IMG/VR virus record: IMGVR_UViG_3300037232_000040 | Length of the DNA: 64,000 nt | Source of the DNA: a virus | Reading direction: 5' to 3' (one strand) | Shown here: positions 8,505 through 23,782 of the stretch, one piece after another | Numbering within the stretch: position 1 is the first letter of the stretch | How the letters are laid out: every line of letters starts with the position of its first letter | The notes under the pieces: generated by a model | What the model saw: only the letters and a program-made list of their open reading frames with translations | What the model was told of the DNA's origin: nothing | Database searches by the model: none | Translations under genes and position numbers: made by a program

Positions 8505-8843
8505 CTAACTCCGACGAGACGCTGCTGGGGGGTCCATACGTTCGTCACTATCTTCTTGTTGCTCCTCTGAATCCCGCACCAGTGTGTGTAATGGTTTACC
8601 GTTAAAGGGTAAAACGTGGTACTGATCAATGAGTGTTCTCGGTAATGGTGTGCCGGTTTCTTTGGCTACATAGATGATAGCCATGTTCAACCACTGAACA
8701 TAACGTATCAGAGCGAATAGTAGCCGCCAAAGTATACCGGCTAGCAGTAGTGTAGACGAAACTCCGCCTACCATTAGAATGATTTGGCCTCCAAGGCTAG
8801 CACGCACTGAGAATGTTCCCAAGAATAGGTTCCAAATGTACAC
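8505..8843 (-). CDS. holin-like membrane protein, start uncertain (GTG 8843 or ATG 8774)
   Basis: Hydrophobic helices followed by a highly charged C-terminal tail (DSEEQQEDSDER). The upstream end overlaps the 3' end of the fibre gene. Confidence 0.4.
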   Translation of the reverse strand: MYIWNLFLGTFSVRASLGGQIILMVGGVSSTLLLAGILWRLLFALIRYVQWLNMAIIYVAKETGTPLPRTLIDQYHVLPFNGKPLHTLVRDSEEQQEDSDERMDPPAASRRS

Positions 8844-11100: not shown

Positions 11101-14100
11101 TCATCGATCTTGCGTACACGTCACCGCAACTTCGAACACGGGATAGGTCGAGCAGCCGACCGGAGGGGTCACAACATTGGTGCAGTAGGAAACCTGTCCG
11201 TTGGCGGCATCGTAGATTCTGCCCGCACCCAGGTCGCGCCATACCTCCGCAATGGTAAGGGTGGTGCCAACCGACGTCAGATTGGCGTTAGCGAGCGAGG
11301 TGCTGCCCAGAGTGCTGTTGGCCATAATGATGTTGTTGTTCCCACTCACCGTCAGACCCGAGAAGTTATCGATCCAATTCAGCTGGTTGGCAATCGTGGC
11401 CTGAGTGGTGCAGCCTGCGCTGGCAACGGTTTGCGAAACGTCAAACTTGCAGGCGTAGTGGGTGGCCGCAGTCGGCTTGATTATGTTAATGGTGCTGATA
11501 CAGCCGGTGCTCATTCCGGATGTGGTGGTGACAATTGTATCTGCTGGAGCATATTGGATATCGGGAACGTTGGTGACGCCGGTTCCCGAAGAATTATTTA
11601 ACTGAACTAGACCGCTGCTGATAGTAATCGGCGACGTCGCTCCTACAATCGATGCGCAAGGCCGAAACGGGTTTGAAGCGTTGAAGTCTCCGATCTGCCC
11701 AGCGCCGGACGCCGCTGTGGTGACGATGCCCAGATATTCCAGGCAGCCGGAACCTGGCGGCGGCGGTGGAGAGTTTACGGTATAGCCGGAGTCGTGCCCG
11801 TAGCCCGACGTGGTGGTGCTGGCTACAATGTAGTGACCGACCACGCTGGCCCCGTCCATGTAAAGCGGAGTGTTCCCGGCTACGGAAAATTCCCCGGTCG
11901 CGCCGAGCTTGCACATGTCCACGCAAACATTCAGCGGGATGGCGGTGTCTCCGGTTGCCGCCGTGGTCCAGCCCGCCGGACCCTCTTTCGCCAGCTCGAA
12001 AAGGGTGGGCGCGCTGCTGGCGTTGATGCCATCGATCGTGGTCAGCCCTTTGCCCAGGCGGCGGCGAGCATGCAGATGAGGATAGGTTCGGACGATGTTC
12101 TGCGTGATCTGCTCGCCGACAAACTGCTTGCCCTCATCGCTGAGATGGACGCCATCGAGATACAAATAGCGGTTGTTGCCCACCGTCTCGTTCCCGATAA
12201 GGTCATTTACGTTGAAAAAAGAAATGGGACGGGCGGGCGTGGTCGCCATCCATGCCGTAGTCGAATCCAATACCGCGTTGCTGTAAGCCTGGGTCGTGTA
12301 GGCGCAAGTTCCAAGGCAAGTCTGGTTATTATCTTGCTGGCTGATCCAGCCTTCATCCGAGTTGGGGTTGGCCGCAGCCAGAGTGTTATGCAGCGTCGTC
12401 CATGTGCCCTGGGCGGTGGCCGGGGAGACCCCGGTATTGCGCTCATTTGTGCTGTAGCTCACCAGAAAGCTGTTGGCACAAAAATTGGTGCTGGCCGGAG
12501 TTGTGCCCTGGCAGTTGCTGGTGTTCCAGAGTTGCGCGCCGAAGCCGGTATTCAGGTTCCGCATGGCGGCGGTCTCGGAATCGGAGGCAAGTTTTTCCAC
12601 GCGCACACCATAGCCATTGCTCAGGGCCGCAACCTGGTCCTGGGCGTCGGCACCAAGGAAGTAAGTGCGGGTTGCCGTGGTCGTAGTGAGTTTCAGGGAG
12701 TGAGACCCTTCGGGAATCGGGTTAGTGCCGTCCAGGGTGGCGACCAGCTGGGTGGCCCACCCCGCCGTGCCCGTGGTCTCGTTAATGGTCCCCTGGGAAG
12801 CGTTCGCATCGATGCCATAACTGAAACTGCCGCAACCGCTCACACAGGTGGGGTAGTAGATGACGAATCCACCGCCATTGGCGCTGCTGCCGCTGACGTT
12901 GGGGCAGGTGATGGTCAGAGTGTCGCCCGAGGTTGCGTCGGAAATCTCGGTGTCGTCCGGGCTGTAAATGCTGTTGCCGGTGCCGTTGGTTTCCTGGGTC
13001 CAGTGGCTGGCGTTGATGACGGAGGCGCTACAGCCGTCGGGCGCGGGGTTATGCACGTTCCCGTCCCATCCGGTGAAGCCGACCTGACCCGCTGCCTGGG
13101 CCGACACCCAGCCCGGTCCGGCGTTGCCGTACATCTCGTGTAGGATGCCGGCCATGACCGTACACCAAGACTTCCCATCGTTCGCGCCGGAGGTGATCGA
13201 ATCGCCGATGCAGGCAATAACGTTCTGCGGTTGCTGGCCCGTTGCCGGGGTACCCCGAATCTCGCTCAGCGCATTCTGCCCAAAAGCAAAGGCGGCAGCG
13301 TATTCAGAGTGGACAGCCAACTCTGCCAACTCGGTTTCTGACTGGTTGCTAGTTCCGTCATAGACCCGTGAGTGTCCTAGCGCGGTGTTGAACCAGCTCC
13401 AACCCGTCCCTGGGGAGGAGACGTCGCCGGTGTTGAGGGAAAAGAAAGTGTTGACCGCCGTAGGTACGGCTGGGGAACTAGTGTTGTTGGCCAGGACTGT
13501 ATAAGCAGCCTGGGACCCGAGTCCGCCGGTGCTCAGCGCCACATTCGACCAGATATGAGTACTGGTGCTGTAGCCGCAGGCGTGCGTGGCGTCACCGCAA
13601 TTAACGAACTGCCCGGCTATAGGATCGCTGCTGCCCACGCCAGCTAGATACTGATCCGTACCCAGTGCGACGAAGTTAAAAGCTGATGCACCTTCGGCGA
13701 TCGGTACTTCATGGGCTGACGGACTCACAGTTCCCGTTCCGCCCAGAGGCGCGCCAACTGCGCCCGAAAGATTGGCCGGGTTGAGCGCGGTCAAAGCCGA
13801 GGCGTTTACTGCCGGAAGGTGCGCACTGCCGTCTAACTGCACCAGGTCATCGGCTGCGACTCCAAGCGCGTAGGAAGATGAGCACCAGGCCGACCCAGTT
13901 GAGCAAGCAACTCCCGCCGACGGATAGATCATGCTGCTGCTACCGCCGGGGCATGGCGAACCAGAGCAGGTGAAGCTGGTAACAGCTAACGCGCCGGTGG
14001 AGTTGACGCTAAAACCCGTGCCTACCACCAGCGAGTTGGCGATCTGCGTCCCCGCCGGATTGACGTACAAGGCCCCCGAGTCTCCAGGGAGCGAGACCGC

Positions 14101-16341
14101 GAAGGTGTGAGTGCTACGGCAGTAATTGATGTAGCCGTTGGCCTCGAAGTTAAAAACCGGGCAGCCGGTAGACCCCAGCTGGGTATAGAACTGCGGGTCA
14201 CCAAAGAATGTTTCGCCATTCAAATTGGTGGCCCCATTGAATGTGGTAGGCCCGATGTTATGCGCGAATTGCTCTGTCAGATCGTTCTGGGTGGTGTTGG
14301 TGTTGCCAAACTGCTCGAAGTAGCCCAGCACTCCCGCGTTGCTAATGCTGCCCACGCTGTTGTAGGAGAGGTTGTTGCCAATGATCGAAACGTTCTGATT
14401 GCTAGCATTGGCCAGTAGGATGCCGTAAGCCGTGGTGAACGAGTAGAGCTGGCCAATCTTGTTATTGATGATGCCCAGTCCGTTGACCTGGTATGGTGTG
14501 ACCGCGATGCCGTCATAGTTGGCGGCGGAGCGGTTGTTGTCGTAAATCTCGTTGCCGGTGATCAGATAGTTGGCATAATCGATGGCCACGCGATCAATGA
14601 GGATGCCATGGCCGCAGTTGGCGCGGATTTGCGTGGTGCTGAGGGTCAGCTGGTTGCCACCCGAGATGTGCATACCAGCGGCGGAGGGGGTCGAGCATCC
14701 CGACGGTCCATTGCCCGCTCCCGCAAACCACGAGTTTGAAATGTTGTAGGCGTAGCCGTGCGCTCCAGCGCCGTGATCAAGGCTCTGGTCCATGAGGAAG
14801 GCATCGCCGCCGGTCGAGGTATCACCAACCAACATATCGCCGAAGAAAGCGTTTCCCGGAGCTAGACCGCAGGAAACCTTGGAGCCTATCGGATAGCTGC
14901 CGGTGACCAGCGCCAGAACAATATGGGTGCCATCGGGAATCGAGACAACCGAGGTTTGGCTCACGGTATTGGTGGTGGGGATGTAGAGTTCGGCGAACTG
15001 GGTGGCTTGGCACAGGTTGGCGTTGTCAACCGGGACCGAGACGTTGCTGCCGGAGTTGACTATCGCGGTAGTCGTCGCTTCGCTGATGGTGTTGCGCAGA
15101 TCGAAGGCGTGCAGCCCAGCAAATGAAAAAGAAACGTCCACGAGGTTGATGCCGTTGGCTCCGGAGTCCAAGACCAAGCCCTCAGAGGTCAAGCCATAGG
15201 AGCCGCCGAAGCCATCGATTGAGTGCATATGGATGTCAATGGCGTGGTCGATCCAAAAGGCCTTGCCAGCATAGTTCTGTAGATAGATGTTGTTAAAAAT
15301 GTCGAAATTCTGCTCGTTGCCGCGCGTGCCGGTGATGCGGAACAAGGTTGAGGTTGCCGAACCGCCAGTCGTGTACAAGTTGGTAAAGCTGTGGTACTGC
15401 GAGAACGTGGGGCCTTGCACCACGACGAGGCCCAGGGCTGAACTGCCCAGAGTGAAGCTCATGTCTCGTAGCATGGTGAAGCTGGTCGATGGCTGATTGA
15501 ATAAATAGCTGGAACCGGTGTAATTGATGACCGTGTCCCAGCCGGAGCCTTCGATAGTCACGCCGGTGGCATAGTTTACGGTGGTGGCTGCGTTATAGGT
15601 GCCTGCCTGGGTGGTAATGCGGCAGTTAGTGTATCCCGCACAGCTGCCAATGGCGGTGTTAACAGCCGCTCCCCAATCGCCGGAATAGTACGTATTAGCG
15701 CTGACTTCCCACGGCGCTATAGAGACCTCTATTATCTGCCAATTAAGCGGGTGCGTATCAGGCTCTAAGTCCAAACTACTTGTTATAGCTGCATAGCTAA
15801 CACTACCATAATCAACTAGGTCAGCCACATTATAGGTTGTACTACTATTCCACACACCACGTGGGTTAAGCGGCGGTCCCGGTGGCCCTGCAGCAAGCAT
15901 AACCAATGGAGTTTGCGGATACTGATAGAGTGCAAAGTTACAAGTACCACCGCCGCACCAAGGATTACTAGCAGGACCATCATGCACCGGCTGCACACAC
16001 TTGTAGTAGCCCAGTTGTTGGTTGGTAGCTAGGTCCTTCCACGCAAACCGCTCGCACAAGTTCTGCGGAAACGTTAAATTACTATCAGCCACCATGCACC
16101 CACCAGCTATAGCACCGCTAGTAATTACGCAGCTCACACCACGCGAGTTTACCTGCCCACCACCGCCAACCTGCGCATTGATTGGTTGGTCAGCGGCATT
16201 AGTGGGTACAATTGTGAGCATACCATGTGCCAACTGATTTCCATTGACATCCTGAATACCACCACCTGCAACAGCCACATACTGTGCATGGGACAGCGTG
16301 GTAAGCAGCACGAACAATGACAACAACGATAGTTTATGCAC
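11101..16341 (-). CDS. 1746-aa multidomain fibre-like protein (signal peptide, CBM5/12-like motif, beta-helix regions, SGNH/GDSL esterase-like region)
   Basis: GGAGGG upstream of GTG 16341. MHKLSLLSLFVLLTTLSHA-Q signal. W..YNVADLVDYGSVSYAA..W motif. IGDSITSG (about 13198-13206) and DGVHLSDEG (about 12130-12157) motifs. Confidence 0.65.
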   Translation of the reverse strand: MHKLSLLSLFVLLTTLSHAQYVAVAGGGIQDVNGNQLAHGMLTIVPTNAADQPINAQVGGGGQVNSRGVSCVITSGAIAGGCMVADSNLTFPQNLCERFAWKDLATNQQLGYYKCVQPVHDGPASNPWCGGGTCNFALYQYPQTPLVMLAAGPPGPPLNPRGVWNSSTTYNVADLVDYGSVSYAAITSSLDLEPDTHPLNWQIIEVSIAPWEVSANTYYSGDWGAAVNTAIGSCAGYTNCRITTQAGTYNAATTVNYATGVTIEGSGWDTVINYTGSSYLFNQPSTSFTMLRDMSFTLGSSALGLVVVQGPTFSQYHSFTNLYTTGGSATSTLFRITGTRGNEQNFDIFNNIYLQNYAGKAFWIDHAIDIHMHSIDGFGGSYGLTSEGLVLDSGANGINLVDVSFSFAGLHAFDLRNTISEATTTAIVNSGSNVSVPVDNANLCQATQFAELYIPTTNTVSQTSVVSIPDGTHIVLALVTGSYPIGSKVSCGLAPGNAFFGDMLVGDTSTGGDAFLMDQSLDHGAGAHGYAYNISNSWFAGAGNGPSGCSTPSAAGMHISGGNQLTLSTTQIRANCGHGILIDRVAIDYANYLITGNEIYDNNRSAANYDGIAVTPYQVNGLGIINNKIGQLYSFTTAYGILLANASNQNVSIIGNNLSYNSVGSISNAGVLGYFEQFGNTNTTQNDLTEQFAHNIGPTTFNGATNLNGETFFGDPQFYTQLGSTGCPVFNFEANGYINYCRSTHTFAVSLPGDSGALYVNPAGTQIANSLVVGTGFSVNSTGALAVTSFTCSGSPCPGGSSSMIYPSAGVACSTGSAWCSSSYALGVAADDLVQLDGSAHLPAVNASALTALNPANLSGAVGAPLGGTGTVSPSAHEVPIAEGASAFNFVALGTDQYLAGVGSSDPIAGQFVNCGDATHACGYSTSTHIWSNVALSTGGLGSQAAYTVLANNTSSPAVPTAVNTFFSLNTGDVSSPGTGWSWFNTALGHSRVYDGTSNQSETELAELAVHSEYAAAFAFGQNALSEIRGTPATGQQPQNVIACIGDSITSGANDGKSWCTVMAGILHEMYGNAGPGWVSAQAAGQVGFTGWDGNVHNPAPDGCSASVINASHWTQETNGTGNSIYSPDDTEISDATSGDTLTITCPNVSGSSANGGGFVIYYPTCVSGCGSFSYGIDANASQGTINETTGTAGWATQLVATLDGTNPIPEGSHSLKLTTTTATRTYFLGADAQDQVAALSNGYGVRVEKLASDSETAAMRNLNTGFGAQLWNTSNCQGTTPASTNFCANSFLVSYSTNERNTGVSPATAQGTWTTLHNTLAAANPNSDEGWISQQDNNQTCLGTCAYTTQAYSNAVLDSTTAWMATTPARPISFFNVNDLIGNETVGNNRYLYLDGVHLSDEGKQFVGEQITQNIVRTYPHLHARRRLGKGLTTIDGINASSAPTLFELAKEGPAGWTTAATGDTAIPLNVCVDMCKLGATGEFSVAGNTPLYMDGASVVGHYIVASTTTSGYGHDSGYTVNSPPPPPGSGCLEYLGIVTTAASGAGQIGDFNASNPFRPCASIVGATSPITISSGLVQLNNSSGTGVTNVPDIQYAPADTIVTTTSGMSTGCISTINIIKPTAATHYACKFDVSQTVASAGCTTQATIANQLNWIDNFSGLTVSGNNNIIMANSTLGSTSLANANLTSVGTTLTIAEVWRDLGAGRIYDAANGQVSYCTNVVTPPVGCSTYPVFEVAVTCTQDR
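14495..14523 (-). repeat. 29-nt exact repeat, copy 1 (copy 2 at 42327-42355)
   Basis: GGTGTGACCGCGATGCCGTCATAGTTGGC on the + strand. Here it is coding (ANYDGIAVTP) inside the fibre gene. Confidence 0.95.
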
Positions 16342-16375
16342 TTCTCAACCCTCCGCCAGCCTGTGCTTTGCACAC

Positions 16376-19300
16376 TTATGGTTTCCTCGTGTTGTGGCTA
16401 TACACACGTTTGCTACCTGCCTTGCCGCAGGCAAATGTGCGACCGCCTATGCTAATCCTGCCTACCCAGCGTTTACCTATGCGTATTGCCTGCATAGCTG
16501 TGGATAACTCTGTAGGTGTACTAGGTCCACTGTCCGTCCATGCTTGCTTACCAGCCATGCCAAACGCGTACACAGTTTCACCGGTAGGCAGCTCAAACGG
16601 TGTAGATTCACTGCCTTCCCACACTGCGCCGTTACTAAACACAAGCCGCACACAAGGTTCTAGCGAAACCCCGGTGGCTTCAACTTGCGCCGCGTACACT
16701 TCTCCTGTGACAGTATTAACGCAGTCAAGCCAAGTACCAGCAACTACGGCTCCGATGCAGGTATGCTCATCCAACATCATGCCCATTGCAGGACAGCCAC
16801 CACCACCTATCCCACCGCCGCCGCCACCTTGTCCACCGCTACCGCTAGCATCGACTGTAAATACATACCCTAAACAAATATGCCCGTTATATACGGCTTG
16901 TGTCATGGCCGCGTAGCTAGTGAGCAGGTAAGCGTAGGCTGTACCGTAGAATCCAGGGTCCCACATAACATAGTATCCTGTAGCTAGCGCCTGACCAGGA
17001 AAAGTAAAAGGCCCTATGTTCGTTACAGTGCCGTCACTTTTATTTATTTCAATAGGGTCACTGATACCTGATGGGCCATAAGCGCGTACTGTAGCTGCCG
17101 TAAACGGCGGGCCACCGGTACCTATGGAGTCCACAGTAGCATCGTTGCCAACAAATTGCCCGAAGTTGTTGTACGAACCGTTAAACACGAAGGTGTACGC
17201 AGTTACGTTGGCAATGTCTTGCTCTTGCGTACCTAGTTCATTAAATGACGTAAACTTAAATGACATTGTACTCCCAACAAGCGTAGGGTCTACGGGCAGT
17301 ACAAATATGGCTTGGTCAAGTCGCAGAAAATTGCTGGACGCAGGGAACGACTCTATAGGACTACCAAATACTCCACGACGCAACAGTGTTCCCAGTTGAT
17401 ATTGTTGAGGTCCTAGCAGCGTGGCGGTCTGATATGAAATTAGCTCTACTGCACCACTCGGTGTGCGGAAGAGGCACAACGTACGGTAGTTGTTACAATC
17501 GCTGGCTGTACCGCTCAGCAGTACGCCACCTATGTCTTGCAGTTGCACATCAACCGAATGGGTGGTATCAGGGTCACTGCTAGCGGGCAGCACCGTAGTA
17601 GTGTAGCCCATGCGCGCAGCACCGTATATGCGGCCAACCTGCTTATAGGTTACTCCGTCTACGGCCATCCAAACAGTAGCACCTGCCCACGTAGTCAATT
17701 GCCCACAGATACCAATCCACACTTCGTACTCACCGGGGTTAAGTGCTAGCCTATCATTGGCTTCAAAGATAATGGGCGGCAAAACATTTCCGGGGTCAGC
17801 ATTGCCATTGGGCTGATAGCCGCTGCCCGACTGTACGGGCTGACCAGTAGGGCTGGAGCTACCGAATATAAACTGGTAAGCCTCGAACTCATAAGTGCCA
17901 TCTTCTTTTTCTGTGACTGAAGAAATTCGCACTGGGGTGTTAACCAAACCAAGCACAGAGTCATTCAGAGCGATTACGTCCATAGGTTCAATTCTGCAGT
18001 ACTGCAAACCCAGCGTAAACTTGAACGTCTGGTTCAAATATACGTTCTGCTTAGCATATGTATCGGCCACTAGCTGTGCAACTGCAGCGCTGGTAATAGG
18101 GTGCATTGTTCTAACATCGTCCCGCTTTTCACCGAACACATTTATGTTAGCTTCGTTCTTAACTTCCACGGTGGAAACATTGTAGTCGTTAGAACGGTCT
18201 ATGTACTCTACGGCCACCACATTCATAGCGTCTGCAGGGTCTTTTACGGCCACCTGTACCGGTGCTGTGGTGCCTGTCCGTATATAGTCGTTGTCGCACA
18301 CGAAGTACTTAGGGTAGGTATCCGGTACGAACACGTAGCCGTTGCCCGCAACCGTCTTCTCACCGGCTGGAACAAACTTTAGCTTACCCTCGCTCCAAAA
18401 TGCGGCCGTATTAACTATGTCCAGTATAGTTTGTAGTTGGTTGGCGTGTGTGTCCTGCGAATCAAATACTGGAGATAGCAAAATGCCGTTGGCGTAGCAG
18501 TAATTCTGCATGGCCGACATATCGCCTATGTACGAAGGGTTAAAGCTAGCTCCATAATATACGCTGGTAAGCATATCATAAATTATGAAGCTAGGGTCAG
18601 CGTCCAACAACCCACCACCAGTAACACCTATACCCAAAACCTCCCAATTTAGATTAGGTAGTTCCCCGGAGCTGCCTAGATCAAAGTCTGAATTAGCAAG
18701 GTAAGCAATACCGGTATAACCTAGCGCCTGCGTAGGGTGCGCACTGGTCAGGTAGCTCCAAGGAGTTTGCGGCCGGGCACCATTAAAGTCAGTCATAAAT
18801 ACTTCGCTGGGCGGTAGTGCAGCAGTTACAGCGGTCACGTACTTATACTGCACTGAAATTTGTTTGCCCGCATCAGCACCTGAAAAGTAGTATACCCAAG
18901 GGCTACTAGGTGACATGGAGTATTGGCCAGCTAAAATAGGATCACCGTAAGCCACAGGCTGCATGGGTGTGGTCATAAAACCAGAAAGGGTAACTGGGCC
19001 ATCAGAGCCATAGTCGTCAGCCACCACGTAGTAACTATCAACACGACCACAACCAATGTTGCCATAGTACAGCGGTGCATTGTATACCGGGCTGTAGCTA
19101 CCCCCACCACCGGGTACAGTATAGGTCTCGTTAGCATCCACGAGTTCTGCCACACCTGAAGTATCCCACACGTTAGCAAAGTAAGCGATTGGCCCTTCAC
19201 AGGCACCCATGGCCACAGCTGCAGTATAGGTGTATGAAGTAGTTTTAGTGGTGCCCCCTCCGAATCCTTTGCCACCTGATGCCTGCTGTGAAGTGTGCGC

Positions 19301-19468
19301 AATGGTGGTAAAGTCGCCATACCACATTATAAATGAGGCTACCCGGCTAGTTCCGTATACCACAGGTATAGCTTGTCCGTAGTTGCTGGCGGTTACACGT
19401 AAAGTAACCAGCGCTGACGGTGTTTGTGCTGCCACAGAGTTGCTAGAACTGCTACCGAATAAGCCCAT
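16376..19468 (-). CDS. tail-tip host-specificity protein (RcGTA g15 / lambda J-like) with C-terminal Hint-like module
   Basis: TAATG coupling to the upstream gene. N-terminus ..YGQAIPVVYGTSRV.. is typical of J-like proteins. Lies after the NlpC/P60 gene. Last 139 aa: Gly linker, Cys, then ..SHN-T. Confidence 0.75.
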   Translation of the reverse strand: MGLFGSSSSNSVAAQTPSALVTLRVTASNYGQAIPVVYGTSRVASFIMWYGDFTTIAHTSQQASGGKGFGGGTTKTTSYTYTAAVAMGACEGPIAYFANVWDTSGVAELVDANETYTVPGGGGSYSPVYNAPLYYGNIGCGRVDSYYVVADDYGSDGPVTLSGFMTTPMQPVAYGDPILAGQYSMSPSSPWVYYFSGADAGKQISVQYKYVTAVTAALPPSEVFMTDFNGARPQTPWSYLTSAHPTQALGYTGIAYLANSDFDLGSSGELPNLNWEVLGIGVTGGGLLDADPSFIIYDMLTSVYYGASFNPSYIGDMSAMQNYCYANGILLSPVFDSQDTHANQLQTILDIVNTAAFWSEGKLKFVPAGEKTVAGNGYVFVPDTYPKYFVCDNDYIRTGTTAPVQVAVKDPADAMNVVAVEYIDRSNDYNVSTVEVKNEANINVFGEKRDDVRTMHPITSAAVAQLVADTYAKQNVYLNQTFKFTLGLQYCRIEPMDVIALNDSVLGLVNTPVRISSVTEKEDGTYEFEAYQFIFGSSSPTGQPVQSGSGYQPNGNADPGNVLPPIIFEANDRLALNPGEYEVWIGICGQLTTWAGATVWMAVDGVTYKQVGRIYGAARMGYTTTVLPASSDPDTTHSVDVQLQDIGGVLLSGTASDCNNYRTLCLFRTPSGAVELISYQTATLLGPQQYQLGTLLRRGVFGSPIESFPASSNFLRLDQAIFVLPVDPTLVGSTMSFKFTSFNELGTQEQDIANVTAYTFVFNGSYNNFGQFVGNDATVDSIGTGGPPFTAATVRAYGPSGISDPIEINKSDGTVTNIGPFTFPGQALATGYYVMWDPGFYGTAYAYLLTSYAAMTQAVYNGHICLGYVFTVDASGSGGQGGGGGGIGGGGCPAMGMMLDEHTCIGAVVAGTWLDCVNTVTGEVYAAQVEATGVSLEPCVRLVFSNGAVWEGSESTPFELPTGETVYAFGMAGKQAWTDSGPSTPTELSTAMQAIRIGKRWVGRISIGGRTFACGKAGSKRVYSHNTRKP

Positions 19469-19926
19469 TACTGCTCCTTAAGTTTGAACAACTTTCTTTC
19501 TAGCCAGCGCAGTTCCCTACTTAGATCGCAGTACACAACCCCGCGTCCTTTAGTAGCGTGGATAACCATGGGGTATTCTACGACAATAGCGCCGTGTGAA
19601 TACGGATGTTCTATAACATTTCCACCGCTCTTAAAAGCCGGTGCGGTGCGGAACATCATAAAATCAGCCGGTAGAGGCACGTCCTGTATTTCTTCAGCAT
19701 ACTGCAGCACAAACTCTAGGTACAACTCCCTAGTATGGTGTAAATGCCATTGCGCCGCGTACTGGGGGGCTGCTGCGCTATCCAGCATATTGCAGGCTTG
19801 GTACACAGCCAATGGGAACATGGCACAGTCCGCACCGCAGCCCTTTACAGCCTGCCTATCTTGGTAGGGTGTACCCAACCAAGTTTTAGCTTCAGTCACT
19901 ACTGCTGCACGCTGTTCGTCATTCAT
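19468..19926 (-). CDS. NlpC/P60-family peptidase (tail-associated, RcGTA g14 / lambda K-like)
   Basis: ..WLGTPYQDRQAVKGCGADCAMF.. (catalytic Cys) and ..YSHGAIV.. (His). Conserved position in the tail-tip module. Confidence 0.75.
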   Translation of the reverse strand: MNDEQRAAVVTEAKTWLGTPYQDRQAVKGCGADCAMFPLAVYQACNMLDSAAAPQYAAQWHLHHTRELYLEFVLQYAEEIQDVPLPADFMMFRTAPAFKSGGNVIEHPYSHGAIVVEYPMVIHATKGRGVVYCDLSRELRWLERKLFKLKEQ

Positions 19927-19929
19927 AGC

Positions 19930-20805
19930 TTAGTATGCCGTTTCTGGTGCTGGTACATAAGGCAGCCCGCTAAAGTTAATCAAGTTGTTGAACTTAGCGC
20001 TGCAGGTGGCCTGCGTCTTATCACAGCCGGGGTAGGCAGTAAACGTGTCCCCGCCATTAGGCGCGAACAACATAGGCACGGCCATGTATATAAATTCATT
20101 TACGTAATTGTCCACATAGTAAGTGAGCCCGACATTGGGGCCAGAAGTAAACACTACCTGCCCTTGGTTGAAATACCCGTCCGGGTTACTTAGCGTAGAA
20201 GCAATCTTGTTCTGCGTAGACCCGGCTACCACGGTAGCACTGACTGCGAAGCTAGACTGGTGAAGTGTACAACCGGGGCTAAACAAAGTCCAACGGCAGC
20301 CCGGCTGGATTATATTGCGTGGAAACTGTTGGTCAAACAATATGGTCAGAGCTTTGCACACCACCACGGCATGTACGCGGTCAACACTGGTTACATTGCC
20401 CAGCACACCTGTAAACACATTGATAGTGCCGTAGGCTGTGCCGCCATTGCCGGGATCCTGCATAAACAGCTTGTCAACAACTATACTAGCCTGTTGCCAC
20501 ACGCCTACACGTATGCTCTGCAGTAAAGGAATAGTGCCTATCAACACAGGTGGTAGTTCAGACGGGGCGTCACCTATGGTCATATCCAGGGTAGCCACTT
20601 CAAACCCTAGCTTAGTAGAAGCCTTGCCGCGCTTAAAATAGGGCGGCCCCGGTAAATAGACATTACCGTTGTAAGTTATGGGACCATCGTAGCTGGTAGC
20701 TCTAATCACCATACCGCTGGGCAGCGTTACGGTAATTAAATCGGCTACGTTGGCCTCTGTCAGTGTGGGTAAAGCTGCAATCAATGCTGGTGGAGCGTAT
20801 TTCAT
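19930..20805 (-). CDS. DUF2163 / phage BR0599-type distal tail protein (RcGTA g13-like)
   Basis: C-terminal ..YPGCDKTQATCSAKFNNLINFSGLPYVP.. matches the BR0599 motif as remembered. ATGA coupling to the upstream gene. Confidence 0.7.
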   Translation of the reverse strand: MKYAPPALIAALPTLTEANVADLITVTLPSGMVIRATSYDGPITYNGNVYLPGPPYFKRGKASTKLGFEVATLDMTIGDAPSELPPVLIGTIPLLQSIRVGVWQQASIVVDKLFMQDPGNGGTAYGTINVFTGVLGNVTSVDRVHAVVVCKALTILFDQQFPRNIIQPGCRWTLFSPGCTLHQSSFAVSATVVAGSTQNKIASTLSNPDGYFNQGQVVFTSGPNVGLTYYVDNYVNEFIYMAVPMLFAPNGGDTFTAYPGCDKTQATCSAKFNNLINFSGLPYVPAPETAY

Positions 20806-21443
20806 AGGCGCACCGTCATAAGCTCAACTTTGTTGCACTTCCAGATAAGGTACATGAACTCGCTGAACTGCAAGCTATCTTTGGTAAACCTGCAGCGGTA
20901 TGCCCATGTAAAGTCAGCGCTTATAGCCGCGCCAAGGGCAGGGGGAGTAGAGAAAACTATAATGCCAGTTGTGCCCAGTGTGAAGGCCGTAGTGGGCACA
21001 CCACCCACATATACCGTAGGTGTGCCCTGCGGATTCTGTACTATGTCCAATATGCCATATACGGTCTGCACCATTTGAAACGCAGTAGTAGTACCGTCGC
21101 CCACACCCAGCAGCTGCCCCTGCACGCTGCTATCAGCAGGTACTAGGGTTAGCAGCGAAGGCTGCAGTAGAAACGATGTAAATGAACCACGACACTGCCC
21201 GAAGAACTGCATCAATGCCGTGCGCTCCGTAAATCCGGTAGGTGCACCGCTGGCGTCTGAGGTCTGCACATAATCTCGTAAGTAACTGTAGACTAAGGAA
21301 AGTGACCAGGTAGGGTACAGCTGACTACTTTGCCTTGTCTCACGGCCATTCTCAGATTCTTGGATTATAGTGCGGTACTGCGGCATCCAACCTATATTCC
21401 AAGTAAGTCCGGGCAACTGAGGAAACCACAGTGGTGTCGGCAT
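20802..21443 (-). CDS. DUF2460-type tail protein (RcGTA g12-like)
   Basis: N-terminus MPTPLWFPQLPGLTWNIGW... Size about 213 aa. Position is immediately after the tape measure and before the g13-like gene. Confidence 0.6.
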   Translation of the reverse strand: MPTPLWFPQLPGLTWNIGWMPQYRTIIQESENGRETRQSSQLYPTWSLSLVYSYLRDYVQTSDASGAPTGFTERTALMQFFGQCRGSFTSFLLQPSLLTLVPADSSVQGQLLGVGDGTTTAFQMVQTVYGILDIVQNPQGTPTVYVGGVPTTAFTLGTTGIIVFSTPPALGAAISADFTWAYRCRFTKDSLQFSEFMYLIWKCNKVELMTVRL

Positions 21444-21448
21444 ATAGG

Positions 21449-23782
21449 CTATGCAAACCTCATGTGCCTAAAATCAGTTTTGATCTTGGCAACAAATCGC
21501 TCATACTGGTCATCCATAATTGCGTTAACGGACTTGGCATCCATGGCTGTAATGTTAGGTGAGAAATGCGTGTGTAGCTCGGAACTATTTTGCTGCCCAC
21601 CGGTGGTTGTGAAGTTTGAAACTGAACTGGTTATCAGGTTGCTTATGTTCTTAGGCAGAACCATTTCCTGCTCATGCAATTTATGGAAGCCAGTGTTAGG
21701 CACCAGTCCACCCGCTTCAAATGCGCCAAATGCCATCACACCAGCAAAGGCTGCGGCTGCAGCAATAGCACCGGCTACCGGGCCGCCCCACGCGCTAGCC
21801 CAGCTGTAGGAATTACCAGCTGCAGTCTTAGCATCTACAAGTATCTGCTTGAGCCCAGCTAACTTTTGAGTTTCCAACATCTTTAGTATGTTGTTAGCCA
21901 TACCTTCAAACATGGACTCGCCTAGCTTCAACATTCCTTGCGAGAACGTAGTTTGCCCAGTAAGAATACCAACGAAGGCGCTGTTAAACTCAGACCTTTC
22001 CTTCGCCAGTGCATTAGCATCAAACTGCTCCATTTGAGTCATTATCTGTTGGTGTTTGGTGGCGTATTGCTGGTCTAGTTCTACCTTTTTATCGATAAGC
22101 GCTTGGTACTGCTCCTTATCCTGGCCATAAATGGTTTCAGCGTCGATAAGCTGCTGTGTTAGCAAAGCATTTTCTGTATTATACCAGTTGTTCAGTGCAG
22201 CAAGGGAGTGCGCTGTCCACTGGTCTATACTCTCATCGTGGTGCTTAAGTGCGAAGTCATCACTTTTTACTTGCTCAGCCAGCACCTGCGTAGCTATCTT
22301 TTCCTCAGTCTGCAGTATTTTCTGCTGTGCCGCGTTGTACGCAGTTACTTTCTTGAGTTGAGCCTTAGTCCACGCATCCTCATCTTTCTGATATGCGGCT
22401 TCCAACACAGTAAGCGAGTCTTCATTAATTTTGTCGTAATCTGCGGCAGCTTCCTTAACCAGCTTTAGCTTAGCTTCTTCGTACGTAGTTACAATGGCGT
22501 TGCTCCGTTCTTGGTGCGCGTAAGTCTCTGCCTCTTCCTGCCCATTAATACGTGCGAAGGTCGCGGCCTCACTAGCACCAGTCGCAGCTTGTCGTTGCGC
22601 AGCTTCACTAGCTTGCTCCTGAAGCGCCTTTATAATAATCTGGTGCTTCTGATCTTCCAAACTTAGCAGTGTGGCCAGTTCATCAGCAGCGGAACTCATA
22701 TCTAAAGCATGTAGGCTCTTAGCGTAAGATTCTTGGTAAGCTATACGCGCCTCGTCAGCCTGCTTATGTGCCTCAGTTACGGCAGCCATTTCGGCGAGCT
22801 GATCATCAATGCCAGACTTAGCCTTGTCACCTTGTAACGCAGCTTCTTTAGCTGGGAACGCATATTTAACCTTGTCCGAAAGTTGATCTAAAAGTTTACC
22901 GTACACTTCCAGCGACTTATTATTTTCTGCAATGCGCTCACTATTCTGGTGTATCTGAAACCCAGTCTTGCTCCATAAATCACTGATGTGAAAAGCAAGT
23001 TGTGCGTCCTCAGCTGTAACTTGCTCAATGGTAGCTTGTACTTCTTTAATCTTAGATATAGTGTTGGATTTCTCTTGCTGCAATATCTTTTCTTCGGCTA
23101 CTACACGTGCTGTACCGGTAAGTGCAGCAGCGCTAGCTTCTAGCTCAGAGTCCTTTAGCTCAGCATTCTTACTGATGATTTCAATATTGCGTTCTACAGC
23201 AGCAGCCTCAGACTTCTTTACCTCAGCAGTCCACCCAGCTAAGTAGTCAGTAGCGCTGGCAATGGCACTGCCTATCTGATAAAACACGCTGAGCAATGCT
23301 ACAGCACCTATGACAGGAAAAGCTGCCTGCAGTACTGGCCCTAGTCCCAGCGTGGTAGCCAGGAAAGCACCGGCAGCCCGGGTGGTACCTGTAAGGTTGC
23401 CCTCCATAACATGCAGGCTGGTGCTGGCTGCTATGCGTGCCGATATACCGCGTGTGGTGGCTGCCGTGTTAGCATCTTCACTGGCAGTTTCGTCGTCTAC
23501 AGCTACAGTCAGTTGGTTGTACGCAGCCTGTGCTTCGCGGGCTGCTACTGCGTACTGCGCAATAATGGCGGCAGCTTGCTGGTTGCCAGTTGCCGCAGCC
23601 GCGCCCAGCTGCAACTGCGCATCAGCAAGATTCTTTACCGCAGCGTCCACCACAGTGTACGCCTGAGCCATTTGGCCAGTAGTGACCTGAGTGGTGGCAG
23701 CTAGATCGGTAAGCCCAGCCTTAAGCTGCGAGCCATCAAACCTAGCTGTCATCACCAGAACGTTGTCAGTTGTTGCCGACAT
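21449..23782 (-). CDS. tape measure protein
   Basis: 777 aa, Ala/Gln/Glu-rich coiled coil with a hydrophobic Gly/Ala segment near the C-terminus. Lies downstream of the frameshifted chaperone pair. Confidence 0.75.
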   Translation of the reverse strand: MSATTDNVLVMTARFDGSQLKAGLTDLAATTQVTTGQMAQAYTVVDAAVKNLADAQLQLGAAAATGNQQAAAIIAQYAVAAREAQAAYNQLTVAVDDETASEDANTAATTRGISARIAASTSLHVMEGNLTGTTRAAGAFLATTLGLGPVLQAAFPVIGAVALLSVFYQIGSAIASATDYLAGWTAEVKKSEAAAVERNIEIISKNAELKDSELEASAAALTGTARVVAEEKILQQEKSNTISKIKEVQATIEQVTAEDAQLAFHISDLWSKTGFQIHQNSERIAENNKSLEVYGKLLDQLSDKVKYAFPAKEAALQGDKAKSGIDDQLAEMAAVTEAHKQADEARIAYQESYAKSLHALDMSSAADELATLLSLEDQKHQIIIKALQEQASEAAQRQAATGASEAATFARINGQEEAETYAHQERSNAIVTTYEEAKLKLVKEAAADYDKINEDSLTVLEAAYQKDEDAWTKAQLKKVTAYNAAQQKILQTEEKIATQVLAEQVKSDDFALKHHDESIDQWTAHSLAALNNWYNTENALLTQQLIDAETIYGQDKEQYQALIDKKVELDQQYATKHQQIMTQMEQFDANALAKERSEFNSAFVGILTGQTTFSQGMLKLGESMFEGMANNILKMLETQKLAGLKQILVDAKTAAGNSYSWASAWGGPVAGAIAAAAAFAGVMAFGAFEAGGLVPNTGFHKLHEQEMVLPKNISNLITSSVSNFTTTGGQQNSSELHTHFSPNITAMDAKSVNAIMDDQYERFVAKIKTDFRHMRFA

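What the first reader, a model, noticed from the sequence alone, without database searches (positions are those of the whole stretch)
16391..16795. Hint / bacterial-intein-like module at the C-terminus of the tail-tip host-specificity protein
The C-terminus of the 1030-aa protein follows a Gly-rich linker (GSGGQGGGGGGIGGGG). The module begins with Cys directly after Gly, a G|C junction as at Hedgehog and BIL cleavage sites. From that Cys to the His-Asn pair is 135 aa, which is mini-intein size. It ends ..RTFACGKAGSKRVYSHN-TRKP, with His-Asn followed by Thr as at intein C-terminal junctions. Only four residues follow, so classical splicing is impossible. Autoproteolytic processing or ligation of the receptor-binding protein would be the plausible activity. 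Caveat: I do not see a clear block-B TxxH (the region reads GSESTPF), so this is a pattern-level call.
Basis: partly seen in the sequence, partly recalled or inferred. Interest (0 to 1): 0.65.

Follow-up and report, generated by a model that had tools for sequence, protein, structure and literature searches.

The report
Self-removing Hint module on tail protein
The last 139 residues of this phage tail-tip protein fold like the self-cutting intein/Hedgehog (Hint) domain and belong to a large, unannotated family found on phage tail and fibre proteins, with an active site that lacks the histidine inteins almost never lose.

Summary
The minus-strand ORF 16376-19468 encodes a 1030-aa GTA-gp15/gpJ-like tail protein. 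It ends with a Gly-rich linker, Cys892, 135 aa to His1025-Asn1026, then TRKP.

No Pfam, NCBIfam or PHROG model detects the module. Three results still place it in the Hint superfamily:
- 182 cluster representatives carry it, nearly always at the extreme C-terminus.
- A family profile hits solved inteins first.
- An AlphaFold model (pLDDT 96, pTM 0.90) matches only inteins, BIL and Hedgehog Hint structures (TM up to 0.80).

Of 57 carriers scanned, every named PHROG match but one is a tail family. Cys1, His-Asn, Gly56 and Pro66 are invariant.

The family departs from canonical Hint domains in three linked ways:
- Block B reads Ser-x-x-Thr instead of Thr-x-x-His.
- Cys48 is nearly invariant.
- Every member has a Lys in the 3-6-aa tail after Asn.

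Homologues without the module stop just after the same Gly linker.

Best reading: a BIL-type-A-like autoprocessing module that removes itself (about 14.2 kDa) from the mature tail protein, possibly re-attaching the tail peptide. Catalysis is inferred, not shown. I rate it a new variant of a known kind.

The parts
16376..19468 (-). Gene for the 1030-aa (109.3 kDa) tail-tip / host-specificity protein, GTA gp15 'megatron' / gpJ-like; the stop codon is 16376-16378
   Evidence: ORF list. Pfam Phage-tail_3 and Rcc01698_C. PHROG 1101, 4271 and 31 tail proteins. It lies downstream of tape-measure and distal-tail genes.
17912..18460 (-). Phage-tail_3 domain (aa 337-519)
   Evidence: E 1.6e-29; coordinates.
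17327..17617 (-). Rcc01698_C domain (aa 618-714)
   Evidence: E 1.8e-14; coordinates.
16844..17176 (-). Pre-linker distal domain (aa about 765-875), no known family. It is shared with homologues that lack the Hint module, and a related segment precedes the module in many other carriers.
   Evidence: Alignment with P0002 and P0011-15. Conserved columns upstream of Cys1 in the 57-protein alignment A3.
16796..16843 (-). Gly-rich linker GSGGQGGGGGGIGGGG (aa 876-891), ending in the -1 residue Gly891
   Evidence: Across the family, the 20 aa upstream of Cys1 average 39% Gly.
16391..16795 (-). Hint-fold module, Cys892 to Asn1026 (135 aa, 14.24 kDa)
   Evidence: AlphaFold pLDDT 96.2, pTM 0.90. Foldseek PDB: NpuDnaB intein TM 0.80, rmsd 2.6; Cth BIL ranks second; Hedgehog 1at0 TM 0.74. 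Profile against PDB: gp41-1 intein, E 8.6e-4.
16793..16795 (-). Cys892 = Cys1 of the module (block A nucleophile); predicted site of the N-S acyl shift at Gly891|Cys892
   Evidence: Invariant in alignment A1. Present in all 136 members selected for having both Cys1 and His-Asn. Its catalytic role is inferred from intein chemistry (PMC4031507).
16652..16654 (-). Cys939 = Cys48 of the module. Nearly invariant in this family; the sister subfamily that keeps the block-B His has Trp here.
   Evidence: 125 of 132 members. hhalign of A1 against A2. Its position next to block B is inferred from the hairpin register only.
16601..16612 (-). Block B equivalent, Ser953-Glu-Ser-Thr956 (module S62..T65), in place of the canonical Thr-x-x-His
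   Evidence: HMM alignments to the PhoCDC21-1 (TPTH) and gp41-1 (SEEH) inteins. hhalign to the TTPGHPF subfamily. Ser in 119 of 132, Thr in 129 of 132.
16424..16465 (-). Block F equivalent, VGRISIGGRTFACG (aa 1002-1015). It has no Asp at F:4 (Arg/His/Lys instead) and no His at F:13 (Ser/Thr instead).
   Evidence: Column frequencies; alignment to A2. The assignment of F positions rests on alignment and is an inference.
16391..16399 (-). Block G end, Ser1024-His1025-Asn1026; Asn1026 is the predicted site of succinimide formation and C-terminal cleavage
   Evidence: His and Asn in 132 of 132; Ser/Thr at the preceding position in 131 of 132.
16379..16390 (-). Four-residue tail (C-extein) Thr1027-Arg-Lys1029-Pro1030. 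It holds the family-invariant Lys (16382-16384) and, in this protein, a +1 Thr.
   Evidence: A tail Lys in 132 of 132 members, within the last two residues in 121 of 132; 88 tails end in Pro. Lys makes up 2.0% of module residues.

Best explanation
Residues 892-1030 are a genuine Hint-fold autoprocessing module, closest in logic to type A bacterial intein-like (BIL) domains. It is attached by a flexible Gly-rich linker to the distal end of a phage tail-tip / receptor-binding protein. The proposed mechanism is inferred from intein/BIL chemistry and has four steps. (1) After folding, Cys892 attacks the Gly891 carbonyl (N-S acyl shift) and forms a thioester. (2) Asn1026 cyclises and cuts the module from the TRKP tail. 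(3) The thioester is resolved by hydrolysis, giving a 94.6-kDa mature protein that ends in the Gly tail. Alternatively it is resolved by attack of the released or adjacent tail peptide: Thr1027 side chain, its alpha-amine as in type A BILs, or the invariant Lys epsilon-amine as in Tetrahymena BIL2. Either ligation route gives mature protein plus 0.48 kDa. (4) The 14.2-kDa module is discarded. The module would therefore act as a removable C-terminal pro-domain of the tail fibre or tip, functionally comparable to the S74 intramolecular-chaperone domain of tailspikes. The active site is non-canonical: the block-B His is replaced by Thr. I infer that the co-occurring Cys48 and tail Lys compensate for that loss.
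For: Shown:
- The layout is exactly as described.
- The fold is Hint with high confidence (pLDDT 96.2; all 50 listed PDB matches are inteins, BIL or Hedgehog Hint, 47 of them at E<=0.001, TM up to 0.80).
- A family profile finds the gp41-1 and CDC21-1 inteins first in the PDB.
- There are 182 representative clusters, with the match nearly always at the extreme C-terminus.
- The residues that carry out intein chemistry are the invariant ones: Cys1, His134-Asn135, Ser/Thr133, and Thr65-Pro66 at block B. Overall identity is only about 35%.
- The module sits on non-homologous carriers. Of 57 scanned, every named PHROG match but one is a tail family: central tail fibre J, several tail-fibre families, and others.
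- It occurs in tail gene modules in the window, in L003 and in a Microbulbifer prophage, L004.
- Close homologues P0011-15 and P0014 share the pre-linker domain and the Gly linker but stop 4-7 aa after the linker. That is the form expected after excision.
- Other homologues (P0018, P0020-32) carry a different, canonical TxxH...HN Hint module at the same place.
- The +1 residue is variable, as in BILs (BIL definition in PMC4031507).
- There is precedent for a Lys nucleophile in a BIL: PMC8616854 on BIL2. BIL2 is itself a structural match (6y75, TM 0.75).
Against: - No experiment bears on processing; catalysis is inferred from conservation alone.
- His B:10, described as the most conserved intein residue and important for step 1 (PMC4031507), is absent. 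So are the usual block-F Asp and His, so N-terminal activation may be slow, or may differ.
- Pfam, NCBIfam and PHROG models do not recognise the module.
- The profile-to-PDB sequence E-value is modest (8.6e-4), so membership rests mainly on a predicted structure.
- Coordinates of the model were not available. The proximity of Cys48 and of the tail Lys to the scissile bond is therefore not verified.
- A strictly conserved tail is not obviously needed for a module that merely falls off.
Confidence: 0.7

Rival explanations
1. The Hint fold has been co-opted as a permanent, non-catalytic distal knob of the tail protein, acting as a receptor-binding or trimer-capping domain. It stays on the virion, and the conserved Cys, His-Asn and Lys serve structure, a disulphide or metal binding.
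For: The canonical catalytic helpers are missing: His B:10 is Thr, F:4 is not Asp, F:13 is not His. Several Cys positions are conserved (C1, C25, C48, C61) and could form disulphides or a metal site in an extracellular protein. The domain sits where receptor-binding domains usually sit.
Against: The invariant residues are precisely the first residue and the His-Asn of the domain. They are at the ends of the fold rather than on a binding surface. A receptor-binding tip would be expected to vary, yet this module is conserved across unrelated carriers. It hangs on a 16-aa poly-Gly tether. Hint-less homologues end at the tether.
Confidence: 0.15
2. The thioester made by the module is used for transfer rather than disposal. 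The Gly-tail carboxyl of the tail protein is covalently joined to an amine or hydroxyl on another molecule: a neighbouring subunit or virion protein, the tail Lys of another chain, or a host surface molecule. This would be Hedgehog- or BUBL-like conjugation.
For: The invariant Lys lies next to the C-terminal junction. A long flexible Gly tether precedes the thioester site. There is precedent for isopeptide formation by BIL2 (PMC8616854) and for cholesterol transfer by Hedgehog Hint, which is a structural match (1at0, 6tyy).
Against: Hint-less homologues with the same distal domain work without any thioester chemistry. No candidate acceptor is conserved next to the gene. If the acceptor is only the module's own tail Lys, this collapses into the best explanation.
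Confidence: 0.1
3. It is an ordinary selfish class 1 mini-intein that happens to be inserted near the C-terminus, and it splices classically using Thr1027.
For: This protein has Cys1, His-Asn and a +1 Thr. The structural matches are mainly mini-inteins.
Against: Across the family the +1 residue is a nucleophile (Thr 19 plus Ser 7) in only 26 of 136 members. The module is never found inside a conserved host-protein motif. It follows a low-complexity linker on unrelated carriers. No homing endonuclease is present. His B:10 is absent. The C-extein is 3-6 aa in about 92% of members.
Confidence: 0.04

Closest known systems
Type A bacterial intein-like (BIL) domains (Amitai et al. 2003; Dassa et al. 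2004; Clostridium thermocellum BIL, PDB 2LWY), as summarised in PMC4031507
   Same: Hint fold (2lwy ranks second). Cys1 and a C-terminal His-Asn. No conserved +1 nucleophile. Found in variable, surface-exposed proteins rather than in conserved enzymes. The expected products are N- and C-terminal cleavage, with some ligation through the freed amine.
   Different: Block B is Ser-x-x-Thr rather than Thr-x-x-His. Cys48 is nearly invariant. The C-extein is only 3-6 aa and always contains Lys. The module was found on phage tail proteins (all named PHROG matches but one among the 57 carriers scanned). Sequence membership in the published BIL-A family could not be tested, because no BIL profile is on hand.
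Tetrahymena thermophila BUBL BIL2 domain (PDB 6Y75/6TMM; PMC8616854)
   Same: Structural match (TM 0.75). A Lys downstream of the domain is the nucleophile that resolves the thioester into an isopeptide. Here a Lys is invariant in the downstream tail.
   Different: BIL2 keeps the block-B His (H69), is flanked by ubiquitin-like domains, and is eukaryotic. Here the downstream part is a 4-aa peptide, and a Lys role is only inferred.
Class 1 mini-inteins (NpuDnaB 4o1r, Ssp DnaB 6frh, gp41-1 6qaz, Mtu RecA 2in9)
   Same: Best structural and profile matches. Cys1, a Ser/Thr-His-Asn end, and mini-intein size (135 aa).
   Different: It is not inserted in a conserved host site. The +1 nucleophile is not conserved. 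His B:10 and Asp F:4 are absent. Curated intein and Hint HMMs give no match.
Thermococcus kodakaraensis CDC21-1 intein (a functional intein without His B:10; PMC4031507 citing Tori et al. 2012)
   Same: It lacks the block-B His and compensates with a Lys outside the conserved motifs. This is the precedent for the compensation idea proposed here.
   Different: It is a single intein with full exteins and a +1 nucleophile. Here a whole family of at least 182 clusters lacks the His, and the candidate compensators (Cys48, tail Lys) are untested.
HINT releasing peptidases of polymorphic toxin systems (PMC3482391; Pfam PT-HINT)
   Same: A Hint domain placed near the C-terminus of long filamentous proteins, including ones with phage-tail-fibre repeats. 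Its job is autoproteolytic release.
   Different: Those release a C-terminal toxin domain. Here nothing but 3-6 residues follows, and no immunity gene or toxin is present. There is no PT-HINT profile hit.
Peptidase S74 intramolecular chaperone domain of tailspikes and tail fibres (K1F endosialidase, T5 pb1, S16 gp37; described in PMC7824862 and bioRxiv 10.1101/2024.10.28.620165)
   Same: A functional analogue: a C-terminal module of phage fibres or spikes that cuts itself off after assembly.
   Different: A completely different fold and chemistry (Ser-Lys dyad, triple-beta-helix context). No S74 match here.
Hedgehog/Hog Hint domains (PDB 1AT0, 6TYY)
   Same: A Hint fold at the C-terminal side of the functional protein, where the thioester at Gly|Cys releases the N-terminal part (TM 0.68-0.74).
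   Different: Hedgehog has TxxH, a sterol-recognition extension and no terminal His-Asn. It transfers to cholesterol.

Membership tests
Hint (Hedgehog/intein) superfamily | Hint fold (horseshoe-like all-beta fold with pseudo-two-fold symmetry) | tested here: met
   AlphaFold2 with the 35-sequence alignment gave pLDDT 96.2 and pTM 0.90. All 50 listed Foldseek PDB matches are inteins, BIL or Hedgehog Hint, TM 0.6-0.8. This rests on a predicted structure, not an experimental one.
Hint (Hedgehog/intein) superfamily | Nucleophile (Cys/Ser) as the first residue of the domain | tested here: met
   Cys892. Invariant in A1 and present in the 136 members analysed.
Hint (Hedgehog/intein) superfamily | Block B Thr-x-x-His | tested here: not met
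   The aligned positions are Ser62-x-x-Thr65, SEST in this protein. Thr occupies the His position in 129 of 132 members.
Hint (Hedgehog/intein) superfamily | Match to curated Hint/intein sequence models (Pfam Hint, Hint_2, PT-HINT, Vint, Intein_splicing; NCBIfam intein N/C-terminal models) | tested here: not met
   No hit for the module or for any of the 35 family members at E<=10 in Pfam or E<=1 in NCBIfam. Only a profile-to-PDB hit to the gp41-1 intein at E 8.6e-4.
Class 1 intein | C-terminal His-Asn (block G) | tested here: met
   His1025-Asn1026; 132 of 132 in the family.
Class 1 intein | Conserved Cys/Ser/Thr at +1 of the C-extein | tested here: not met
   This protein has Thr1027, but across the family +1 is Ala 29, Pro 21, Thr 19, Leu 13, Val 12, Ile 10, Gln 9, Ser 7....
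Class 1 intein | Insertion inside a conserved site of a host protein, with intein-free alleles joined seamlessly | tested here: not met
   The module follows a poly-Gly linker at the extreme C-terminus of unrelated tail proteins. Hint-less homologues end 4-7 aa after the linker, but their tails are not homologous to TRKP.
Class 1 intein | Protein splicing activity | not testable with these tools
   Requires expression and mass spectrometry.
Type A BIL domain | Hint domain with Cys1 and C-terminal His-Asn but no required +1 nucleophile | tested here: met
   The definition is taken from PMC4031507.
Type A BIL domain | Sequence membership in the BIL-A family as originally defined (Amitai et al. 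2003 motifs) | not testable with these tools
   No BIL-A profile is available. The structural match to Cth BIL 2lwy (rank 2, E 1.2e-5, TM 0.60) is suggestive only. BIL-A domains, as I recall them, keep the block-B His, which this family lacks.
Type B BIL domain | No similarity to intein block G (no terminal His-Asn) | tested here: not met
   His-Asn is invariant, so this is not a type B BIL.
Class 3 intein | No Cys1/Ser1; Trp (block B), Cys F:4 and Thr G:5 triplet | tested here: not met
   Cys1 is present. The F:4-equivalent is Arg/His/Lys. The conserved internal Cys48 lies before block B, not in block F. Only the Ser/Thr at G:5 matches.
Polymorphic-toxin releasing HINT (PT-HINT) | A toxin domain C-terminal to the Hint, with an immunity gene downstream | tested here: not met
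   Only 4 aa follow the module. The downstream gene is a 1746-aa tail-fibre-like protein. No PT-HINT hit.
Peptidase S74 intramolecular chaperone | S74 domain with a Ser-Lys dyad at the C-terminus of a fibre or spike | tested here: not met
   No Pfam Peptidase_S74 hit. The fold is Hint. It is a functional analogy only.

The most novel reading that the evidence does not exclude
This is a previously unrecognised mechanistic class of Hint domain, specific to phage tail proteins. It has dispensed with the block-B histidine. Instead it uses an internal Cys (Cys48) and an obligatory Lys in a 3-6-residue C-terminal tail. The Lys epsilon-amine would resolve the Gly-Cys thioester into an isopeptide, as in Tetrahymena BIL2. 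The fibre's Gly tail would end up capped with a branched peptide, or subunits or virion proteins would be covalently cross-linked. That would be an ATP-independent, self-contained protein-ligation step in virion assembly.
Probability: 0.2. Interest if true: 0.8.

Novelty: new variant of a known kind. Interest (0 to 1): 0.62.

Why it matters
**For phage biology.** It would add a second, chemically unrelated type of self-removing C-terminal module on receptor-binding proteins, beside the S74 intramolecular chaperone. It is present in at least 182 sequence clusters. Those include cultured Xanthomonas jumbo phages and Stenotrophomonas phage DLP_6, where it is annotated as 'hypothetical' or not annotated at all. 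Mature tail-fibre ends, and therefore receptor-binding models and engineered fibres, would be mis-predicted if the module is assumed to stay on.

**For intein and Hint enzymology.** It is a large natural family that keeps Cys1 and His-Asn but replaces the residue called 'the most conserved intein residue' (His B:10). Two co-occurring features, Cys48 and the tail Lys, point to a testable compensatory or alternative mechanism.

**In practice.** A 135-aa module that needs only a 4-residue C-extein and tolerates a poly-Gly N-extein could become a self-cleaving tag or a thioester generator.

**For annotation.** It shows a gap in the Pfam, NCBIfam and PHROG coverage of the Hint clan.

Tried and rejected
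- **Direct profile tests of the module** (Pfam at E<=10, PHROGs, NCBIfam, phmmer against PDB). There were no Hint hits. The PDB phmmer hits were Gly-linker artefacts such as SRSF1 and scFv linkers.
- **Word-indexed homology search with the module alone** found nothing. With the family profile it found only 6 proteins, all named 'hypothetical', where a source name is given, and without Pfam domains.
- **Single-sequence AlphaFold** gave pLDDT 36.5 and was unusable. Only the alignment-based model was used.
- **Scanning the other C-terminal modules of homologues against Pfam** gave only sub-threshold Vint-Hint hits (E 8.8e-4 and 0.04). Pfam therefore misses those modules too.
- **Literature searches** for Hint or intein-like domains on tail fibres or host-specificity proteins found no description. 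The hits concerned terminase and RNR inteins or S74 domains.
- **Cluster-member look-up for names** returned no informative names.
- **A second copy of the module in the window** was sought with a six-frame hmmsearch. There is none.
- **Readings considered and rejected:** class 3 intein (Cys1 is present, no Cys at F:4), type B BIL (His-Asn is present), polymorphic-toxin HINT (no toxin), and a chance Cys...His-Asn pattern (ruled out by fold and family).
- **Could not do:** read the model's coordinates to measure Cys892-Cys939 and Lys1029-Gly891 distances.
Full report
**1. The observation**

The minus-strand ORF 16376..19468 encodes a 1030-aa protein.
- The linker GSGGQGGGGGGIGGGG is aa 876-891 (16796-16843).
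- Cys892 (16793-16795) directly follows Gly891.
- Cys892 to Asn1026 is 135 residues (16391-16795).
- The protein ends ...KRVYSHN|TRKP.
- The block-B region reads GSESTPF, with no TxxH.

The module weighs 14.24 kDa and the rest of the protein 94.6 kDa.

The N-terminal part is a tail-tip / host-specificity protein. It has Pfam Phage-tail_3 (E 1.6e-29) and Rcc01698_C (E 1.8e-14), plus PHROG tail protein and central tail fibre J. The genes upstream on the same strand, in order, are:
- a tape-measure protein (21449-23782);
- a phrog_2913 protein (20802-21443), whose counterpart in locus L003 is DUF2460;
- a tail assembly protein (19930-20805);
- a minor tail protein (19468-19926).

This is the GTA-like / siphovirus distal-tail gene order.

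**2. Is it a Hint domain?**

Curated sequence models say nothing. There is no Pfam, PHROG or NCBIfam hit for the module, even at permissive thresholds. phmmer against PDB sequences found only Gly-linker artefacts. A single-sequence structure prediction was useless (pLDDT 36.5).

An exhaustive phmmer search of 1.84 billion cluster representatives changed the picture. It found 182 proteins at E<=1e-3 (31 at E<=1e-10), with the match almost always running to the last residues of the protein.

A 35-sequence alignment of these modules (A1) has mean identity to the query of about 35%. Its invariant columns are Cys1, Gly56, Pro66, His134 and Asn135. Cys48, Thr65 and several Gly are nearly invariant.

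Three results then place the family:
- A profile of A1 searched against PDB sequences puts the gp41-1 intein first (E 8.6e-4). The PhoCDC21-1, PabCDC21-1 and NpuDnaB inteins are also listed.
- AlphaFold2 with A1 as the alignment gave a confident model: pLDDT 96.2, pTM 0.90.
- Foldseek against the PDB returned 47 matches at E<=1e-3. All 50 listed matches are inteins, BIL domains or Hedgehog Hint domains.

Among the Foldseek matches are NpuDnaB (TM 0.80, rmsd 2.6 Å), Mtu RecA (0.78), the C. thermocellum BIL at rank 2, Tetrahymena BIL2 (0.75) and Hedgehog 1at0 (0.74). Against predicted viral structures, the best matches (TM about 0.9) are uncharacterised phage proteins of the same family. Terminase and helicase inteins follow.

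The fold assignment is therefore secure, as far as a high-confidence prediction can be.

**3. What kind of Hint domain?**

I analysed 136 family members that have both ends present.
- Length and ends: the module is 125-147 aa (median 131). It starts with Cys (Cys-Val in 100, Cys-Pro in 21) and ends His-Asn.
- Tail: only 3-6 residues follow in 121 of them, and 4 is the commonest number.
- The +1 residue: it is not a conserved nucleophile (Ala 29, Pro 21, Thr 19, Leu 13, Val 12, Ile 10, Gln 9, Ser 7).
- The -1 residue: it is Gly in only 33.

This is the defining behaviour of type A BIL domains rather than of inteins. PMC4031507 states that BILs lack the +1 nucleophile, and that type A BILs keep His-Asn, mostly cleave, and can ligate through the freed amine.

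Block B is not canonical.
- HMMER aligns the family's S-x-s-T-P-F with PhoCDC21-1 T-P-T-H-P-F and with gp41-1 S-E-E-H-L-F.
- hhalign aligns it with the T-T-P-G-H-P-F motif of a sister subfamily (A2; probability 81%, E 1.3e-5).
- Ser62 therefore stands at Thr B:7, and Thr65 at His B:10.
- Across 132 members the B:7 position is Ser in 119, and the B:10 position is Thr in 129.
- The block-F equivalents are also non-canonical: Arg/His/Lys where Asp F:4 is usual, and Ser/Thr where His F:13 is usual.

PMC4031507 calls His B:10 the most conserved intein residue. It knows only two inteins without it. One is a pseudogene. The other (Tko CDC21-1) compensates with a Lys.

**4. Two features that travel with the loss of the histidine**

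First, Cys48 is present in 125 of 132 members. The His-containing sister subfamily has Trp at the aligned column. Cys48 lies 8 residues before the hairpin-turn Gly56, and block B lies 6-9 residues after it. By hairpin register they should be cross-strand neighbours. This is an inference, because I could not read the model's coordinates.

Second, every one of the 132 short tails contains a Lys.
- The Lys is within the last two residues in 121 tails.
- 88 tails end in Pro, and -Lys-Pro is the commonest ending.
- Lys makes up only 2.0% of module residues.
- The rest of the tail varies freely (ALKP, TRKP, QTQKP, PVK, LFK...).

The rare members with a long C-extein still have Lys at +3. The sister subfamily's tails (YEPNS, FQPLS...) have no Lys.

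Tetrahymena BIL2 resolves its thioester with a Lys of the downstream domain and forms an isopeptide (PMC8616854). A catalytic or nucleophilic role for the tail Lys is therefore a concrete, testable idea.

**5. Where the module lives**

All the carriers I could classify are phage tail proteins.
- Some carriers have the same Phage-tail_3 + Rcc01698_C architecture as the window protein.
- Among 57 full-length carriers, every PHROG match that has a name, apart from one phosphodiesterase-named family, is a tail family. Examples are central tail fibre J (10), phrog_21973 tail protein (17), phrog_5616 tail fibre (9), and host range and adsorption protein.
- The genomic contexts examined are tail modules: the window, L003, and a lambda-like prophage tail module in Microbulbifer, L004.
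- In the INPHARED collection only 8 cultured phages carry the module: six Xanthomonas phages, one Erwinia phage and Stenotrophomonas DLP_6. There it is the C-terminus of a 'hypothetical protein' close to a tail fibre gene, is unannotated, or lies in records with no annotation.
- The 20 residues before Cys1 average 39% Gly.
- A conserved segment precedes the linker in many carriers.

**6. Natural 'processed-like' forms**

Close homologues P0011-15 and P0014 share the window protein's pre-linker domain and Gly linker. They stop 4-7 residues after the linker (HVLPQQ, NRKLPQM, GRPLPRT, RQFF), with no Hint module. P0015 lies on a 220-kb contig, so it is not a truncation artefact.

Other homologues (P0018, P0020-22, P0024-30, P0032) carry a canonical TxxH...HN Hint module at the same place. 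P0053, P0066 and P0071 carry yet other Cys...His-Asn modules.

The distal end of this tail-protein family is thus a slot that is either empty or filled by one of several Hint modules. That fits a dispensable module removed after translation better than it fits a receptor-binding domain.

**7. Mechanism (inferred)**
- Cys892 forms a thioester with Gly891.
- Asn1026 cyclises and detaches the tail.
- The thioester is then hydrolysed, or captured by the tail peptide.
- Capture could use Thr1027, its alpha-amine, or the Lys1029 epsilon-amine.
- The 14.2-kDa module leaves, and the mature protein ends in a flexible Gly tail, with or without TRKP.

Its biological role is probably that of a transient C-terminal pro-domain: a folding or trimerisation aid, or a cap. 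This would be analogous to the S74 intramolecular chaperone of tailspikes (PMC7824862).

I put 0.7 on active autoprocessing, and about 0.97 on the Hint fold. The main alternative (0.15) is a catalytically dead Hint fold kept as a structural knob. A transfer or cross-linking use of the thioester (0.1) and a plain selfish mini-intein (0.04) are less likely.

**8. Novelty**

I found no description of Hint or BIL modules at the C-termini of phage tail or fibre proteins in the searchable literature. No curated model covers the family, and the available source names are 'hypothetical' or 'uncharacterized'.

The superfamily and the general chemistry are well known. Three things are new:
- the family itself;
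- its restriction to tail proteins with a minimal C-extein;
- its active-site constellation (Ser-x-x-Thr, Cys48, tail Lys).

I therefore rate it a new variant of a known kind, of moderate-to-high interest.

Noticed in passing
window 11101-16341 (-): The gene immediately downstream encodes a 1746-aa protein with a signal-peptide-like N-terminus (MHKLSLLSLFVLLTTLSHAQ). It has sub-threshold GDSL/SGNH esterase hits (aa about 1283-1413) and a weak CBM_5_12 hit, but no PHROG match. It is probably a large tail fibre or depolymerase-esterase.
   Followed up: partly
window 8797-11028 (-): A 743-aa protein with a He_PIG putative Ig domain (E 1.8e-8) and no PHROG match. It may be another fibre or adhesin of the same tail module.
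   Followed up: partly
P0011-P0015, P0014 (homologues of the window protein): 'Hint-less' forms. They have the same pre-linker domain and Gly-rich linker but stop 4-7 residues after the linker. They resemble the product expected after excision.
   Followed up: yes
P0018, P0020-22, P0024-30, P0032 (alignment A2); also P0053, P0066, P0071: Homologous tail proteins carry different C-terminal Cys...His-Asn modules at the same position. One subfamily has a canonical TTPGHPF block B and tails of the form xxPxS. Pfam gives at most sub-threshold Vint-Hint hits for them, so these too are unmodelled Hint families.
   Followed up: partly
P0167 (1560 aa), residues 1269-1560: Two Hint modules of this family in tandem. 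The first ends ...ASHN-AIK-GPGG and is directly followed by a second Cys-Val module ending ...HHN-AKDTDPMGGL.
   Followed up: no
P0170, P0196, P0205: Rare members in which the module is internal, followed by 47-159 residues. All keep a Lys at +3 after His-Asn (LMK, MQK, IRK).
   Followed up: no
P0023 (1492 aa) C-terminus: After the Gly linker it reads ...GGSCCAMTFWCSRKPKALSRC.... This looks like a frameshifted remnant of the canonical Hint module seen in its relatives.
   Followed up: no
window 16844-17176 (-) and the equivalent segment in alignment A3: A segment of about 60-110 aa before the Gly linker is conserved across many unrelated carriers. Its consensus is ..TYxLYxxDxxxxGGxxTLxATT..VxxGxVTxPxSG, and here it reads YYVMWDPGFYG...VYNGHICLGYVFTVDASG. 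It appears to travel with the Hint module as one cassette and has no known family.
   Followed up: partly
L002 (Stenotrophomonas phage DLP_6, KU682439.2) 1239-1643: A family member (36% identity, E 6e-9) lies in an unannotated stretch at the very start of the deposited genome, just upstream of AAY80_001. A fibre gene was probably missed or split by the chosen genome start.
   Followed up: partly
window 16317-16916 (+): A 199-aa ORF antisense to the Hint-coding region (Pro/Thr-rich translation). It lies entirely inside the well-supported minus-strand gene and is most likely spurious.
   Followed up: no
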